A program made the position numbers and the translations under genes. 64,000 nucleotides of DNA from Candidatus Freyarchaeum deiterrae (GTDB taxonomy: Archaea; Asgardarchaeota; Jordiarchaeia; Jordiarchaeales; Jordiarchaeaceae). The stretch covers positions 2,400,001 to 2,464,000 of the forward strand of contig CP147778.1 in the NCBI GenBank assembly GCA_037305845.1, in the 5' to 3' direction. Below, piece after piece: positions 34,944-59,084 of this stretch. Below the pieces are notes generated by a model, which saw only the letters and a list, made by a program, of their open reading frames with translations, had not been told where the DNA came from and searched no databases. Every line of letters begins with the position of its first letter. The stretch's first letter is position 1.

Positions 34944-36344
34944 CAAGAAAGCCCTAGTCCCTTTAGGGTGGGGGATGAATTGCGGGAGTTTAAATACCGA
35001 AAAAGGAGGAAAAAGGGGGAGTGAAAAGGGTATGCGGATAAACTGGGGTTTGAAGCCTACCCGCATCGGACTCGTTATGAATGAGGGAGAGTTGCGCATT
35101 TGAGAAGGACTAACACCTTCCGGCTGGTTCCAGCAAAGGAGCAGAAGCAGAGACTTTTCAGTTTAGCCGACAACTGCTCCAAAATGTACAACGAGATAAA
35201 CCATAAACGCAGACAATCATTCTTCTCAGGCAGATTCGACTGGAACACCGACGAACAATACCACAAATACAAGGGGTTAGTCGGCTCCGCCACCGCCCAG
35301 CAAATCACACAAAAGAACAACGAAGCCTGGAAATCATACTGGGCACTCCTAAAGAAGTGGAAAAAGGGAAAGGTGGAGAAGAAACCCAAACCTCCGAGAT
35401 ACTGGAAGGATCGCGAGACTGGAAAAAGACCCCTTAGAATCCTGGTAAGGTGCGACAGCTACCATCTGGAAGAAAAAGCCCTCAAACTCCCTTTCGGACT
35501 AAAAACGCAGTGGAGGGGCAGAAACAGGTGGAAAGGCGGTAAACAGGGCAGACTCGAAATAACCTATGACGAACTCTCGGAGAAATGGTACGCCTACATG
35601 CCAGTAGAGATCAAACCTCCTCTACACCAGCAACAGCAGCAGCTGAAAGGAAAAGAAAAGGAGGCGTACGTGGATCTGGGAGTGAAAGTCCCCATAATGG
35701 CGAGTATAGATTGGGAAGTCTTCGGCTACCGGGCGAATCCCATGCTCTCGGACTGGTGGTACTGGACACACAGAATAGCGGAACACCAGTCAATCCTGAA
35801 AGATGTAAACAATCGGTCAACCTCAAAGCTGTTAAAATCCTACCATAGGATGAGGCAGAGAAGATTCAGGAACAGTGTCAACGTGATGGTGAGGGACTTC
35901 GTTGAAAAGTGCTGGAACAGGGGAGTCTCGGAGATAGTCTGCGGAGATTTGAGAGACATAAGAAGCAGCGCCAACTTCTCAAGGAGAAGCAACTCCATGA
36001 TTCACAACTTCTGGTCGGTAGGATACATAGTAAGGAGGATAGAAGAAGTAGCAGAGGAGTACGGGATAAAAATAACTAGAGTTGATGAGAAAGGAACATC
36101 ATCAGAATGTCCGAGGTGCGGCTCAAAAAGAATCGTTAGAAGCAAAAGAATGTTCAGGTGCCGGGACTGCGGACTGGAAGCACACCGAGACGCCGTAGGC
36201 TGCGTAAACATAGGGCTTGCTCACCAACAAAAAGAAAAAGAAAAGGATGCGGAAGCCGTTAACAGGGCGGTGACACGCCCCACACTTCTAACAATAACTG
36301 CAGAAGTGTATAACTCCCTACCTTTCAAGGAGGGGAGTATGTCA
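34944..36344 (+). mobile_element. IS200/IS605-family (IS1341-like, tnpB-only) element
   Basis: Left-end hairpin region AAAGCCCTAGTCCCTTTAGGGTGGGG; right end CTCCCTACCTTTCAAGGAGGGGAGTATGTCA; no tnpA; ends approximate to a few nt. Confidence 0.8.
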
Positions 36345-36356
36345 GTAATCAGGTAA
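35100..36356 (+). CDS. tnpB: RNA-guided endonuclease TnpB
   Basis: RTNTFRLVP, YVDLG (RuvC-I), IVCGDL, VDEKGTSSECPRCG..FRC.DCG..AHRDAVGCVNI (zinc finger, RuvC-III). Confidence 0.92.
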   Translation: MRRTNTFRLVPAKEQKQRLFSLADNCSKMYNEINHKRRQSFFSGRFDWNTDEQYHKYKGLVGSATAQQITQKNNEAWKSYWALLKKWKKGKVEKKPKPPRYWKDRETGKRPLRILVRCDSYHLEEKALKLPFGLKTQWRGRNRWKGGKQGRLEITYDELSEKWYAYMPVEIKPPLHQQQQQLKGKEKEAYVDLGVKVPIMASIDWEVFGYRANPMLSDWWYWTHRIAEHQSILKDVNNRSTSKLLKSYHRMRQRRFRNSVNVMVRDFVEKCWNRGVSEIVCGDLRDIRSSANFSRRSNSMIHNFWSVGYIVRRIEEVAEEYGIKITRVDEKGTSSECPRCGSKRIVRSKRMFRCRDCGLEAHRDAVGCVNIGLAHQQKEKEKDAEAVNRAVTRPTLLTITAEVYNSLPFKEGSMSVIR

Positions 36357-49843: not shown

Positions 49844-51319
49844 TTGAACCCTGCAGACGAAAATAAGGATGCAGAAATCGATAAGATGATAGAAGAAATT
49901 AACAAGGCAATACTCAAAAACCCCAAAACACAAAAAGAAACCATAGACAGCATACAAAGCACAATAAACCAAACAGAAAACATAGGGGTTGTGGGGCGGT
50001 GCCTCACCGATGTCGCTAATGCAAGCCCTGAGCTAGCGGAGAAACTAGCCAAAGCCATAAATTTGAAAACCCTAGCCAGAAAAATAGACCAAACAAAAGA
50101 TATACGGGATTTGGGGTGGTGCCTCATCGAGGTCGCTAGAGCAAGCCCTGACCTAGCGGAGAAACTGATACCGAGTGTAGCCAGAAAAATAGACCAAACA
50201 GAAGACATACATGCTGTGGGGGACTGCCTCAACAGTGTCGCTAAGGCAAGCTCTGAGCTAGCGGAGAAACTAGCCAAAGCCATAAATTTGGAAACCCTAG
50301 CCAAAAAAATAGACCAAACAGAAAACATAGATAATGTTTGGTTGTGCCTCCTCGGGGTCGCTGATGCAAGCCCTGAGATAGGGGAAAAACTAGCCAAAGC
50401 CATAAACACGGAAAACCTAGCCAGAAAAATAGACCAAACAGAAGACATACGAGCTGTGGGGTCGTGCCTCTTCGGGGTCGCTAGAGCAAGCCCTGAGCTA
50501 GCGGAGAAACTGATACCGAGTGTAGCCAGAAAAATAGACCAAACAGAAAACATAGAGGCTGTGGGGGAATGCTTCTTCGGGCTCGCTAGAGCAAGCTCTG
50601 AGATAGCGGAGAAACTAGCCAAAGCCATAAATTTGGAAACCCTAGCTAGAAAAATAGACCAAACAGAAGACATATTGGCTGTGGGGCGGTGCCTTCCCGA
50701 CATCGCTGGAGCAAGTCGTGAGACAGTGGAGGAACTAGCCAAAGCCATAAATTTGGAAACCCTAACCATAAAAATAGATCAAACAGAAGACACAGATCAT
50801 GTGGGGGTGTTCCTCTCCTTTGTCGCTGAAGCAAGCCCTGAGCTAGCGGAGAAACTGATACCGAGTGTAGCCAGAAAAATAGACCAAACAGAAGACATAC
50901 ATGCTGTGGGGTTATGCCTCGCCTTTGTCGCTGAAAAAATCACTGAGCTAGCAGAGAAACTGATACCGAGTGTAGCCAGAAAAATAGACCAAACAGAAGA
51001 CATACATGCTGTGGGGCGGTGCCTCACCGATGTCGCTAATGCAAGCCCTGAGCTAGCGGAGAAACTAGCCAAAGCCATAAATTTGGAAACCCTAGCTAGA
51101 AAAATAGACCAAACAGAAGATATACGGGATTTGGGGCGGTGTCTCATCGATGTCGCTTATGCAAGCCCTGAGCTAGCGGAGAAACTGATACCGAGTGTAG
51201 CCAGAAAAATAGACCAAACAGAAGACATAGAGGCTGTGGAGTGGTACCTCGCTGATGTCGCTAAAGCAAGCCCTGAAATAGGAGAAAAACTAGCCAAAGC
51301 CGTAACACGGAAACCCTAG
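49844..51319 (+). CDS. HEAT/ARM-like tandem-repeat protein (12 repeats of 35 or 40 aa)
   Basis: Consensus ARKIDQTEDIxxVGxCLxxVAxASPELAEKL(IPSV or AKAINLETL). Confidence 0.85.
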   Translation: MNPADENKDAEIDKMIEEINKAILKNPKTQKETIDSIQSTINQTENIGVVGRCLTDVANASPELAEKLAKAINLKTLARKIDQTKDIRDLGWCLIEVARASPDLAEKLIPSVARKIDQTEDIHAVGDCLNSVAKASSELAEKLAKAINLETLAKKIDQTENIDNVWLCLLGVADASPEIGEKLAKAINTENLARKIDQTEDIRAVGSCLFGVARASPELAEKLIPSVARKIDQTENIEAVGECFFGLARASSEIAEKLAKAINLETLARKIDQTEDILAVGRCLPDIAGASRETVEELAKAINLETLTIKIDQTEDTDHVGVFLSFVAEASPELAEKLIPSVARKIDQTEDIHAVGLCLAFVAEKITELAEKLIPSVARKIDQTEDIHAVGRCLTDVANASPELAEKLAKAINLETLARKIDQTEDIRDLGRCLIDVAYASPELAEKLIPSVARKIDQTEDIEAVEWYLADVAKASPEIGEKLAKAVTRKP

Positions 51320-55868: not shown

Positions 55869-56205
55869 TGTCTGTTTGCACCTCCAACTCTAAAGTAATA
55901 GCGATTAGATACCTTTACCTATTTAAGTTTCACTCTTACAGATATTTTATCAGATTAAAAGGTTTTCCTCGGCTCTTTCCGTTTTTTTAAAGTTTTTCTT
56001 CACAGTTTTTTACGTTTTTCGGAATTCTTTTTCCTACGTTCCAGAATTCGAATATATTTTAAATAGGTTTGGCAAAAATTTTCCAATTGGATAATAATAG
56101 TTCATAAAAAACATTTTTTATTGGGAGTAAAAACGCAAGGTTTTTTTAAACGAAAGAATATTATATTCAAAATCACAGATATTTCTGTCTGATTAGGTGT
56201 TGGGT

Positions 56206-56649
56206 ATGGAGGTAACGTTTAAGTTAGAAGGTGAGAGCGTCACCGTAAAACTTCCTGAAAACTTGTACTATAACAATGATCACTGCTGGGTGAAGGCAGA
56301 AAACGGAAAAGCAAGAATCGGATTCGACGACTTCGGCCAAGCAACAGCTGGGAAAATCCTTTTCGCAAGACTTAAACCCGAGGGGAAGCCCATTGAGGTG
56401 GATAAGAGCTTCGGTTCAATAGAAACCGGAAAATGGGTAGGACCACTAAAAGCTCCAATCAGTGGCACTATACTAGAAGTCAATCCTGAACTAAAAAAGA
56501 AGCCCACCATTATCAACGAGGATCCCTATGGAAAAGGATGGTTAGTAGTTGTACAACCAACAAATCTAAAACCAGAATTATCCAAACTTGTCACCGGTGC
56601 CGCTATCAAAAGTTGGATAGACAAAGAAATAAAAGAAAGAATAAAATAA
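56206..56649 (+). CDS. gcvH: Glycine cleavage H-like lipoyl carrier protein
   Basis: H.WV, IGFDDFG, IETGKWVGPLKAPISG, NEDPYGKGW. Confidence 0.88.
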   Translation: MEVTFKLEGESVTVKLPENLYYNNDHCWVKAENGKARIGFDDFGQATAGKILFARLKPEGKPIEVDKSFGSIETGKWVGPLKAPISGTILEVNPELKKKPTIINEDPYGKGWLVVVQPTNLKPELSKLVTGAAIKSWIDKEIKERIK

Positions 56650-56683
56650 ACCAACATTTCACTCTTTTTTTAATTTTTGAGGC

Positions 56684-57781
56684 TTGAAAGAATTGGAAGA
56701 ATGGCGACTCTTAGACTTGGACGCCTTACCCGCAACAGACACTCAAACCATATACGAGGCTGTCGCATCAGCCAGAAGCAAGAACCTTGTTCCCGAAACT
56801 CTCATACTCTGCTACCCCAAAAGTCCGCTAGTTTGTATAGGATATCACCAAGATTTAGAGAAGGAAGTAGATTACTCTTTTTGCCAGTCTCAGAGAATAC
56901 CAGTGGTTCGGAGAATCCTGGGTGGTGGAGCAGTGTACCTAGACCAGGGGCAACTCTTCTACCAAGTAATTATTGATAAGAAAAACCCCAAAGTTCCACT
57001 ATCAATAAATGATTTCTTTCGGAAGCTTCTAGAAGCACCCACAAAAACCTATCAGGAACTGGGTATCCCCGCGGTTTACAAGCCAATCAATGACATCGAA
57101 GTAGGCGGTAGAAAAATCAGCGGTAACGGTGCCGGCACTCTGGAAAATGTTGTAAACATAATGACTGGTAACATCATAATGGACTTCAACTTTGAAATGA
57201 TGGTGAAAATCCTAAAGGTTCCGAGTGAAAAATTCAGGGATAAAGTGGCGAAAAGCCTAGAGGAGCGAATGACCACCATAAAAAAGGAACTGGGACATGA
57301 GGTCCCCCTAGAAAAAATCAAATCGTTGCTCATAAAAAACTACGAGGAAACTCTAGATATAAAACTGCGAAAAGGAATGCTCAACGATTGGGAAAAGAAA
57401 ACCATGAGAGGCCTGAAAAAGAAATACCAATCCCAAGAATGGTTAAACATGGTATTTTTGCGTCATCCGGACCTAGCACGAAAAGTAAAAATTTCGAGCA
57501 TCGCATACGTTTCCGAATCCGCCTACAAAGCACCCGGAGGCCTAATCAGGGTCACCCTGAGGATAGATGAGGACAAAATAAAAGAAATAATGCTCAGTGG
57601 AGATTTCTTCATATATCCCGAGGACAAATTAAGCGAGCTAGAAAAAAGACTTACTGGGGTTCCCACCGATATAAGCGAAATAAATCAAGTTATCCAAACC
57701 TTTTACAAGGAAGAAAAAATAGAAACTCCCGGGGTAACCGCGCAGGACTTTCTAACAGCAATACGCCAAGCAACGGAGTGA
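56684..57781 (+). CDS. lplA: Lipoate-protein ligase A
   Basis: VRRILGGGAVYLD, NDI...GRKISGNG, KAPGGLIRV, SGDFF. Confidence 0.92.
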   Translation: MKELEEWRLLDLDALPATDTQTIYEAVASARSKNLVPETLILCYPKSPLVCIGYHQDLEKEVDYSFCQSQRIPVVRRILGGGAVYLDQGQLFYQVIIDKKNPKVPLSINDFFRKLLEAPTKTYQELGIPAVYKPINDIEVGGRKISGNGAGTLENVVNIMTGNIIMDFNFEMMVKILKVPSEKFRDKVAKSLEERMTTIKKELGHEVPLEKIKSLLIKNYEETLDIKLRKGMLNDWEKKTMRGLKKKYQSQEWLNMVFLRHPDLARKVKISSIAYVSESAYKAPGGLIRVTLRIDEDKIKEIMLSGDFFIYPEDKLSELEKRLTGVPTDISEINQVIQTFYKEEKIETPGVTAQDFLTAIRQATE

Positions 57782-57949
57782 AAAGTCAAGTTTTCTTTTT
57801 GAAAAAGAATACTCATTACTAAGAACCGTTTTTGAATTTCTGTTCAAAAATCAGACACATACAGTTCATAATTTTTTTAAATTTTGGTAATCTTTATTAT
57901 ACAGCGTTATCCTAATTGAACACTCAACCAAAAGTGGAGGTGTAAACGG

Positions 57950-59005
57950 CTGGAGAAGTATAGGTTAACTAAGGCAGTAACTCTTCATGGATGATCATGT
58001 AAACTACCTCAAACTGAACTGAATAACCTTCTAGAAAATGTCGGAGTGAGAAGAGACCCCTCAGGAAGACTAATTGGAGGAATCGGGGAAGACGCCGCCG
58101 TGGTCAAGATTCGGGATGATCTGGTACTCATAGAAACTGTTGATTACATGACCCCGAACGTTGATGATCCCTATATCCAGGGCAAGATTGCTGCGGTAAA
58201 CGTTACGAACGATGTGTATAGTGTAAATCTACTTGATTTACATGCATAAGCAATAGGCGCAACCGATGTTGTGAGCTTCTTAGCGATACTCGGAGTTCCT
58301 GAAAATATGCCTATTAAAATAGCTGAGGGAATGCTGAAGGGAATAAACGATTTACTAAGCGAACTGGGCACTACAACCATCACCGGCGGTCACACCATAA
58401 TAAATCCCTGGCCCTTAGTCGGAGGAGTGGCTTCAGGAATAGCTCATCCAGACCAGATAGTAACCCACAAGAATGCTCGACCCAACGATGTGGTGCTGCT
58501 TACTAAACCGCTGGGTACTCAGCCAGCGATGGCTTGTTATAGAGGACTCCTAGATCCCAGCGTCGCAGAGCAAATACTGGGATTAATGTCCAGAAAGGCA
58601 GCAGAAGAAATTGTTCAAAAGGGGATTGACATTATGACTAGGACAAATAAGCCGGTGGCTGAGGCGATGTCAGCTGTGAAACCTCATGCCTCTACAGATG
58701 TCACCGGATTCGGACTTCTCGGGCACTCTCGAAATTTAGCAGGTGAAAGCAAGGTTAACATTGACATTCACACAATTCCCATAATCAAAGGCACTTTGGA
58801 GCTTTCGGATCTTTTCGGATACGGACTTCAGTCTGGTGAGTCAGCGGAAACCGCGGGTGGAATGATTCTAATTGTTTCAGAAGACCAGAAGGAAAGCTTG
58901 GAATCAGAGTTGGACAAAGGTTCTGTTAATCACTACGAAATAGGTACCGTGAGGAAGGGGTCTGGAAAAGTTGATACCAGCAAGGCGGAAATACTTGAAG
59001 TTTGA
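57950..59005 (+). CDS. selD: Selenophosphate synthetase: selenoprotein (UGA 57992-57994), two exons (57950-58219 and 58250-59005), CTG start, 341 aa
   Basis: YRLTK...HG-U-SCK, GEDAAV, TVDY.TP.VDDPY..GKIAA.N..NDVY/AIG, GGHT, TKPLGT, TDVTGFGLLGH, ETAGG. Confidence 0.92.
58220..58249 (+). other. Predicted 30-nt BHB/BHL-type mRNA intron in selD
   Basis: Helix GUGU/GCAU, bulges AUA and AAG, intron stem GUGUAAAUC/GAUUUACAU; contains an in-frame TAA. Confidence 0.8.
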
Positions 59006-59084
59006 GCGGCAGTAATGATCTGAGGATTAAACCCTTATTTGGGAATCTAAAGAGAACATTCCATCCTGCAAGGGTGGTGCCGCT
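59005..59084 (+). promoter_or_regulatory. Eukaryote-like (type II) SECIS element in the selD 3' UTR
   Basis: Helix I AGCGGCA/UGCCGCU; AUGA (59015) and GA (59054) core; 10-bp helix II with two mismatches; apical AAA plus CCC/GGG ministem. Confidence 0.85.

What the first reader, a model, noticed from the sequence alone, without database searches (positions are those of the whole stretch)
58202..58262. tRNA-type (BHB) intron inside the selD coding sequence
Seen in sequence: the frame reads N-D-V-Y, then 30 extra nt (AGTGTAAATCTACTTGATTTACATGCATAA, 58220-58249, ending in TAA), then A-I-G-A. The insert folds into a 9-bp stem (58221-58229/58235-58243). Flanking it are a 4-bp helix GUGU(58214-17)/GCAU(58244-47) and 3-nt bulges AUA(58218-20) and AAG(58248-50). 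Established: SelD has a contiguous DVYAMG motif; the archaeal splicing endonuclease EndA cuts after the 2nd nt of each bulge; mRNA BHB introns are known mainly from crenarchaeal cbf5. Applying that rule gives cuts after 58219 and 58249, exactly the deletion that restores NDVY-AIG. The outer exon helix is poor, so this is a relaxed BHL-type motif. Inference: selD is a spliced gene, not a pseudogene, and selenium metabolism depends on the tRNA splicing machinery.
Basis: partly seen in the sequence, partly recalled or inferred. Interest (0 to 1): 0.95.

Follow-up and report, generated by a model that had tools for sequence, protein, structure and literature searches.

The report
tRNA-type intron inside Asgard selD
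The only selenophosphate synthetase gene of this Asgard archaeon looks broken but carries a 30-base intron of the kind archaea cut out of tRNAs, kept at the same spot in all its relatives, so its messenger RNA very probably has to be spliced, something published for the coding part of only one archaeal gene (cbf5).

Summary
Confirmed. The genome matches the complete Freyarchaeia (Jordarchaeia) genome by size. Removing 58220-58249 joins the two halves of its only selD at adjacent positions of three family models and of human SPS1. That is where the tRNA endonuclease rule cuts; such geometry occurs at about 7 per million sites. The insert sits at the same codon in all 10 scorable genomes of the order and in 19 distinct sequences, and in no other Asgard selD inspected. 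It keeps the 4-bp helix in 19/19, with two-sided changes in 7 of 9 inner-stem pairs. Lengths of 31, 32 and 34 nt exclude read-through; both exons are under purifying selection. There is no outer exon helix (relaxed HBh' motif), and the genome encodes the two-subunit endonuclease type that cuts such motifs. It is not selenium-specific: at least eight other genes here carry similar inserts, including cbf5 at its published site. No spliced RNA was found, so splicing is inferred. I found no paper on it. This scan reported the same selD intron before in other genomes (e1-1175089, e1-5396918, e1-5396911, e1-5423781).

The parts
57936..57942 (+). Shine-Dalgarno-like GGAGGTG, 7 nt before the probable start
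   Evidence: read from sequence; same motif 6-8 nt before the first conserved Leu codon in relatives
57950..58219 (+). selD exon 1, 90 codons, probable CTG start (inferred; no ATG before the Sec codon)
   Evidence: residues after Sec match PRK14105 18-90, TIGR00476 12-89, PF00586 1-48
57992..57994 (+). In-frame TGA, selenocysteine codon 15 (G-U-S-C-K)
   Evidence: TGA at this codon in all order members and the other Asgard selD inspected except L019, a divergent copy with Cys
58214..58217 (+). 5' strand of the central 4-bp helix H (GUGU, in exon 1)
   Evidence: invariant in 19/19; the Val codon is always GTG here but varies in intronless homologues
58218..58220 (+). 5' 3-nt bulge; predicted cut after 58219
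   Evidence: cut rule from PMC2738675
58220..58249 (+). 30-nt intron, phase 0, with in-frame TAA at 58247-58249
58221..58243 (+). Inner stem h' (58221-29 with 58235-43) and 5-nt loop
   Evidence: 7 of 9 pairs with two-sided change, 95.6% of cells paired
58244..58247 (+). 3' strand of helix H (GCAU, in the intron)
   Evidence: 4/4 pairs in 19/19; two one-sided changes both keep the pair (G.U to G-C in G008, U.G to U-A in L204)
58248..58250 (+). 3' bulge/loop position AAG; predicted cut after 58249
58250..59005 (+). selD exon 2, 251 codons plus stop
   Evidence: matches PRK14105 from 91, TIGR00476 from 90, PF00586 from 49, human SPS1 from 115
59005..59084 (+). Eukaryote-type SECIS-like hairpin: AUGA 59015-18, apical AAA 59029-31, GA 59054-55
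   Evidence: fold z -3.26; conserved in 6 congeners, 4 pairs with two-sided change; no Rfam SECIS match

Best explanation
An archaeal tRNA-type pre-mRNA intron. The selD transcript folds a hairpin whose base is a 4-bp helix between two 3-nt bulge positions, without an outer exon helix (HBh'). The two-subunit splicing endonuclease EndA cuts after the second base of each bulge (after 58219 and 58249) and RtcB joins the exons. The mature mRNA, read from CTG with the UGA decoded as Sec through the 3' SECIS, gives a 341-residue SelD. Unspliced RNA would give a 99-residue fragment. The intron was most simply gained once in the ancestor of the order Jordarchaeales and kept since. Shown: sequence, boundaries, conservation, covariation, presence of the enzyme genes. 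Inferred: the cutting and ligation, the enzymes that do it, the CTG start, Sec decoding, the single gain.
For: Halves are adjacent in three family models, in human SPS1 (114|115) and, from the exon 1 side, E. coli SelD. Homology boundary equals the EndA rule boundary; geometry frequency 7e-6. Same site in 10/10 scorable genomes, 3 genera, 2 families and 19 distinct sequences. Lengths 30 (16x), 31, 32, 34. 96.9% of cells paired, 21 two-sided cells, 0/500 shuffles reach it; slid controls 14-59%. pN/pS 0.05-0.09/0.55-0.79 in exon 1 and 0.10-0.14/0.52-0.75 in exon 2; the intron differs at only 3-5 of 30 sites among congeners. Only selD over the family cut-off. Two EndA genes in 10 of 11 genomes; the alpha subunit is closest to Aeropyrum EndA and keeps the CSL loop with the K44 equivalent, which confers cleavage of relaxed motifs (PMC6379350). 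RtcB present. Internal control: the same rule finds an insert in this genome's cbf5 between bases 1 and 2 of the catalytic Asp codon, the published site (PMC2738675). A second insert in this window is precisely absent in four congeners, at the rule's boundaries.
Against: No spliced sequence found: the junction pattern gave 0 hits in the JGI metagenome collection, and no continuous exon1-exon2 protein of this lineage was returned. These are mostly DNA assemblies, so this is weak. The published metatranscriptome lists 0 transcripts for this selD. Helix H is marginal (two G.U pairs) and RNAalifold drops it when 45-nt flanks are added. No conserved outer helix holds the exons together for ligation. 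Kin are not independent: most two-sided changes separate the two families.
Confidence: 0.9

Rival explanations
1. Ribosomal bypass: the mRNA is not cut; the ribosome hops over the hairpin from the Tyr codon and resumes at the Ala codon.
For: Tolerates variable insert length; there is a hairpin and a stop; TAY and TAA share two of three bases in 9 of 10 genomes.
Against: No identical take-off/landing codon pair in any of 10 genomes; G008 has TAC versus CAA. In T4 gene 60 the stop directly follows the take-off codon (PMC8211752); here an ordinary sense codon follows. Bypass does not explain an exon-intron helix and 3-nt bulges in exact EndA register, nor the same geometry at phase 1 and 2 junctions in other genes.
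Confidence: 0.03
2. Removal at the RNA level by another nuclease or pathway that recognises the hairpin, with ligation by RtcB or another ligase.
For: No outer helix; H is weak. Hairpin-triggered, spliceosome-independent excision exists in animals (SOS splicing; abstract only, PMC12779559).
Against: Boundaries follow the EndA rule to the base in selD and in at least eight other genes; the local EndA is of the relaxed-specificity type.
Confidence: 0.03
3. Two-chain SelD: a 99-residue N-terminal piece ending at TAA plus a C-terminal piece from an internal start, as public gene calls have it (67 aa + 244/250 aa).
For: Databases call the gene in two pieces in every order member retrieved.
Against: No conserved start in exon 2 (first candidates at codons 1, 6, 7, 10 or 19). 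The residues right after the insert are conserved with synonymous change though no conserved start precedes them. In G006 and G008 the first piece would run into 47 or 29 unrelated residues.
Confidence: 0.02
4. Stop read-through with a tolerated 10-residue insertion, or a pseudogene, or an assembly error.
For: In 16 of 19 sequences the insert is 30 nt, in frame, ending in a stop; the gene already recodes one stop.
Against: 31, 32 and 34 nt inserts shift the frame; the insert's translation is not conserved; both exons are under purifying selection; single copy; identical in independent assemblies.
Confidence: 0.02

Closest known systems
cbf5 pre-mRNA intron of Crenarchaeota (Watanabe 2002; Yoshinari 2006; Yokobori 2009, PMC2738675)
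   Same: Short ORF-less insert in a coding sequence, next to active-site residues, relaxed BHB motif, cuts between the second and third bulge residues, hetero-oligomeric EndA. This genome's own cbf5 has an insert at that site.
   Different: Different host gene (selD), Asgard lineage, phase 0 rather than inside the Asp codon, host is a selenoprotein mRNA with UGA and SECIS, and it is one of at least nine such coding-sequence inserts in the genome. cbf5 splicing was shown experimentally; this was not.
Non-canonical tRNA introns with HBh' motifs (Marck and Grosjean 2003, as summarised in PMC6379350); tRNA introns of Freyarchaeia and Atabeyarchaeia (PMC11291895; bioRxiv 10.64898/2026.10.13.758758)
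   Same: Same motif class, similar size, same lineage (92-95% of tRNA genes interrupted), same predicted enzymes.
   Different: Host is an mRNA with no tRNA body to hold the exons. Term searches of both Asgard papers found introns discussed for tRNA only; the preprint does not contain the words mRNA, selD or cbf5.
HVO_1309 5'-UTR BHB intron of Haloferax volcanii (Schwarz 2020, PMC7714728)
   Same: EndA-processed mRNA.
   Different: Lies in the untranslated leader, does not interrupt a reading frame.
HAC1/XBP1 non-spliceosomal mRNA introns of eukaryotes (own knowledge; RtcB role per abstract PMC11747266)
   Same: Short intron removed by an endonuclease and a tRNA ligase, restoring a reading frame.
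   Different: Cut by IRE1 at two stem-loops and stress-regulated; no regulation shown here and no homology claimed.

Membership tests
Archaeal EndA-type (BHB/HBh') intron | Central 4-bp helix between the two splice sites | tested here: met
   4/4 in 19/19 sequences; two one-sided changes keep pairing. Three of the 19 were found with a pattern containing the 3' strand.
Archaeal EndA-type (BHB/HBh') intron | 3-nt bulges, cut after the second base, restoring the host molecule exactly | tested here: met
   Rule boundary equals homology boundary
Archaeal EndA-type (BHB/HBh') intron | Inner intron helix h' closing the 5' bulge | tested here: met
   8-10 bp in all; 7 of 9 pairs with two-sided change
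Strict hBHBh' motif | Outer exon helix h closing the 3' bulge | tested here: not met
   0-1 of 6 pairs in all 19; only a weak, interrupted distal pairing in the wide alignment. Hence HBh', not strict BHB.
Archaeal EndA-type (BHB/HBh') intron | Host encodes an EndA able to cut relaxed motifs, and a ligase | tested here: met
   Two EndA genes; alpha with Tyr/His/Lys motifs and CSL lysine, best match Aeropyrum; RtcB. Sequence level only.
Archaeal EndA-type (BHB/HBh') intron | Absent at the same site in outgroup orthologues | tested here: met
   No insert in outgroup loci inspected; listed non-order matches have uninterrupted frames, 321-333 aa apart from two at contig ends (134 matches not listed)
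Archaeal EndA-type (BHB/HBh') intron | Spliced RNA and excised (circular) intron observed | tested here: inconclusive
   No spliced junction in assemblies; raw RNA reads cannot be searched here
Archaeal EndA-type (BHB/HBh') intron | Cleavage by EndA in vitro | not testable with these tools
   needs an assay
Programmed ribosomal bypass (T4 gene 60 type) | Matching take-off and landing codons; stop right after take-off | tested here: not met
SelD / selenophosphate synthetase | Family model over cut-off, N-terminal Sec/Cys-x-x-Lys motif, single continuous AIRS fold sequence | tested here: met
   TIGR00476 219.6 bits versus cut-off 125 when read through; G-U-S-C-K at codons 14-18

The most novel reading that the evidence does not exclude
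Jordarchaeia splice many core mRNAs with the tRNA machinery (about 0.85 on my tests), and the selD intron is in addition a control point rather than a tolerated passenger: it was kept in all 19 sequences seen while a neighbouring intron is missing from four congeners, and the Sec UGA at codon 15, which needs a SECIS transcribed last, could hold ribosomes upstream and so tie splicing of selD to selenium supply. The probability given is for this regulated reading.
Probability: 0.15. Interest if true: 0.92.

Novelty: new variant of a known kind. Interest (0 to 1): 0.8.

Why it matters
In the papers I could search, endonuclease-type splicing inside an archaeal coding sequence is shown only for cbf5 (plus one 5'-UTR case). 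Here it interrupts the single selD of a whole Asgard order and at least eight more genes of the same genome, several of them core (tyrS, gatE, cbf5). If spliced, mRNA splicing by a protein endonuclease and RtcB is routine in a lineage close to eukaryotes, which bears on where non-spliceosomal mRNA splicing comes from and on how coupled transcription and translation cope with introns. In practice, databases split these genes, so metabolic reconstructions and trees of these genomes use truncated proteins. The 30-nt substrate makes the claim testable in vitro without a culture.

Tried and rejected
Genome-wide motif count alone does not discriminate (102 versus 88 in a shuffle at length 30, stem 8 or more). 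A strict motif-plus-coding scan over 18-80 nt showed no excess over length-shifted controls (45 versus 40-46). A scan at 20-40 nt gave a modest excess (75 versus 40-59; 14 versus 5 for inserts ending in AA, a filter I chose after seeing the list), so no genome-wide number is claimed; only cases checked by homology are counted. A motif-free census with 400 kb of an outgroup genome found no intron among 122 queries after filtering, although the raw table held the Alba insert; many queries were antisense frames and the test had little power. Two of 13 hand-picked candidates (L210, L218) look like junctions of neighbouring genes; four (endoQ, Alba, an HD-domain gene, a flavin oxidoreductase-like gene) restore plausible motifs but were not confirmed by model positions on both sides. 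ARAGORN at lowered threshold gave 664 mostly spurious tRNAs and was not used. Rfam found no SECIS or intron family. P0017 and P0025 (301 aa, continuous) are not spliced products of this lineage: about 52% identity. The bacterial promoter scan is uninformative. PMC3064391 could not be read.

Full report
Observation. The frame starting at CTG 57950 reads a selenophosphate synthetase with TGA at codon 15 and a TAA after codon 99; deleting 58220-58249 gives one 341-residue frame. Among 16 registers of a 30-nt deletion, earlier ones leave a stop and later ones replace the family's Ala by Thr, Arg or Ser. The halves are adjacent in PRK14105 (90|91), TIGR00476 (89|90) and PF00586 (48|49) and in human SPS1 (114|115). 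The junction lies just after the codons equivalent to E. coli N87 and D91 (numbering; their active-site role is my own knowledge). It is the only selD over the family cut-off. Five independent sequencing-run assemblies carry the same junction, so it is not an assembly error.

Source. The genome is one contig of 3,576,204 bases, the exact length of SRVP_Freyarchaeota_curatedFINAL in the supplement of PMC11291895; relatives with the insert are named Jordarchaeum, Jordarchaeia and Freyarchaeota, one record Thermoproteota and one uncultured archaeon. That paper reports introns in 92-95% of tRNA genes and a full Sec system, lists SPS as a selenoprotein, and in the passages found discusses introns only for tRNA.

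Conservation. All ten scorable genomes of the order (six of the genus, four of the second family; the eleventh contig ends before the site) have an insert after the same Tyr codon: 30 nt in eight, 31 in G006, 34 in G008. Nine further variants from other assemblies add one of 32 nt. Outgroup Asgard selD loci inspected have none, and the listed matches of a 400-genome search have open frames. Lengths that are not multiples of three exclude read-through. Both exons show pN far below pS, and the insert changes at 3-5 of 30 sites where synonymous sites have changed at 52-79%, so neither gene nor insert is decaying.

Structure. On the ten-genome alignment the 13 named pairs are formed in 96.9% of cells; 7 of 9 inner-stem pairs have two-sided changes; no shuffle of 500 reaches the paired fraction or the covariation score, and slid controls give 14-59%. 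RNAalifold finds the same fold unaided. Most changes split the two families, so they are few independent events, though G006, G008 and L204 add their own. The central helix is complete in 19 of 19, and its two variants turn a G.U into a Watson-Crick pair. The Val codon in the helix is always GTG, whereas intronless homologues use several codons. The outer exon helix is missing everywhere, which makes this the relaxed HBh' form. A site fixed by homology has this geometry by chance about 7 times per million. Weak points: H holds two G.U pairs, its probability is 0.3-0.9, and it is not predicted when longer flanks are folded.

Machinery. The genome has two EndA genes, as do 10 of 11 genomes of the order, and RtcB. 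One EndA keeps the catalytic Tyr, His and Lys motifs, is closest to Aeropyrum pernix alpha (E 9e-43) and has the CSL loop with the K44 equivalent; the other lacks the His by eye. Only two-subunit and epsilon-type enzymes cut relaxed motifs efficiently, through that loop (PMC6379350).

Not unique to selD. Prompted by earlier scan notes, I ran my own scan. As a count it is weak. Checked one by one, seven candidates join adjacent positions of family models at the predicted cuts: cbf5 (69|D|71), ahcY, pcm, tyrS, gatE, porA and a leuC-family gene. The cbf5 insert lies between the first and second base of the catalytic Asp codon, the site published for Crenarchaeota (PMC2738675), which serves as a control for the rule. 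An eighth lies in this window (34719-34689, minus strand, 31 nt): present at the same site in G002 and four genomes of the second family (27-29 nt, helix 4/4 in all) and cleanly missing in four congeners, whose sequence equals the predicted spliced form. These candidates were hand-picked, so nine is a floor, not an estimate.

Mechanism. Most likely EndA cuts after 58219 and 58249, RtcB joins the exons, and the mRNA is read with Sec at codon 15 through the SECIS-like hairpin at 59005-59084. The cutting, the enzymes and the decoding are inferred. Bypass fails its defining test (no matched codons, no stop after take-off). A two-chain enzyme lacks a conserved second start. How the exons stay together without an outer helix is unexplained.

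What is missing. No spliced sequence turned up in assemblies, and the published metatranscriptome lists no transcript for this selD. The recent preprint on Asgard tRNA introns notes that none of its newly found introns has been shown spliced in an Asgard cell either.

Novelty. Ten literature searches found cbf5 as the only coding-sequence case and one 5'-UTR case (PMC7714728); Yokobori 2009 mentions unconfirmed predictions in other genes. Subscription papers are not covered. Within this scan the same selD intron was reported at least four times on other genomes; those notes are not independent evidence, and my reading was recorded before I saw them. Verdict: real, very probably spliced, a known intron type in a new host gene and lineage and part of a multi-gene pattern; interest 0.8.

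Noticed in passing
window 34719-34689 (minus strand): Second tRNA-type insert, 31 nt and frame-shifting, in a LIMLP_15305-family-like gene (I-P-G-Y | H-G-Y-K). Same site in G002 and four genomes of the second family (27, 29, 28, 28 nt); precisely absent in four congeners, which suggests exact intron loss, for example through a spliced copy.
   Followed up: yes
window 57950-57952; L007-L009, L011, L012: selD seems to start at a Leu codon: CTG in the genus, and TTA is the codon at the same distance from the Shine-Dalgarno motif in three genomes of the second family and two 2.8-Mb complete outgroup genomes; in L012 no ATG, GTG, TTG or CTG precedes the Sec codon in frame.
   Followed up: partly
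window 59005-59084: Eukaryote-type SECIS-like hairpin with an extra side hairpin, starting at the last base of the stop codon; not matched by Rfam.
   Followed up: partly
L221 (genome C1:1483446, minus strand): cbf5 carries a 32-nt insert at the site of the published crenarchaeal cbf5 intron, here with a 5-bp outer helix: shared ancestry or repeated gain at one site.
   Followed up: partly
L211-L217, L219, L220, L222 (genome C1): Further coding-sequence inserts of 28-34 nt: gatE, porA, ahcY, pcm, tyrS, leuC-family (model positions adjacent); endoQ, Alba, an HD-domain gene and a flavin oxidoreductase-like gene (motif restored, not fully confirmed). Most begin with A and end in AA.
   Followed up: partly
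window 56197-57781: GcvH-like lipoyl carrier and lipoate-protein ligase genes directly upstream of selD, the three lying between two halves of a complex I/hydrogenase-like gene cluster.
   Followed up: no
L016 (G017:C5:26877-28894) and many genomes of family f9: Two selD matches per genome, tandem in G017 and several others, in one large Asgard family.
   Followed up: no
window 49844-51319: 491-residue protein made of about 35-45-residue helical repeats, with a long antisense open frame over it.
   Followed up: no
window 35085-36356: IS200/IS605-type TnpB-like open frame with a C-terminal zinc ribbon, judged by eye, just upstream of the second intron gene.
   Followed up: no
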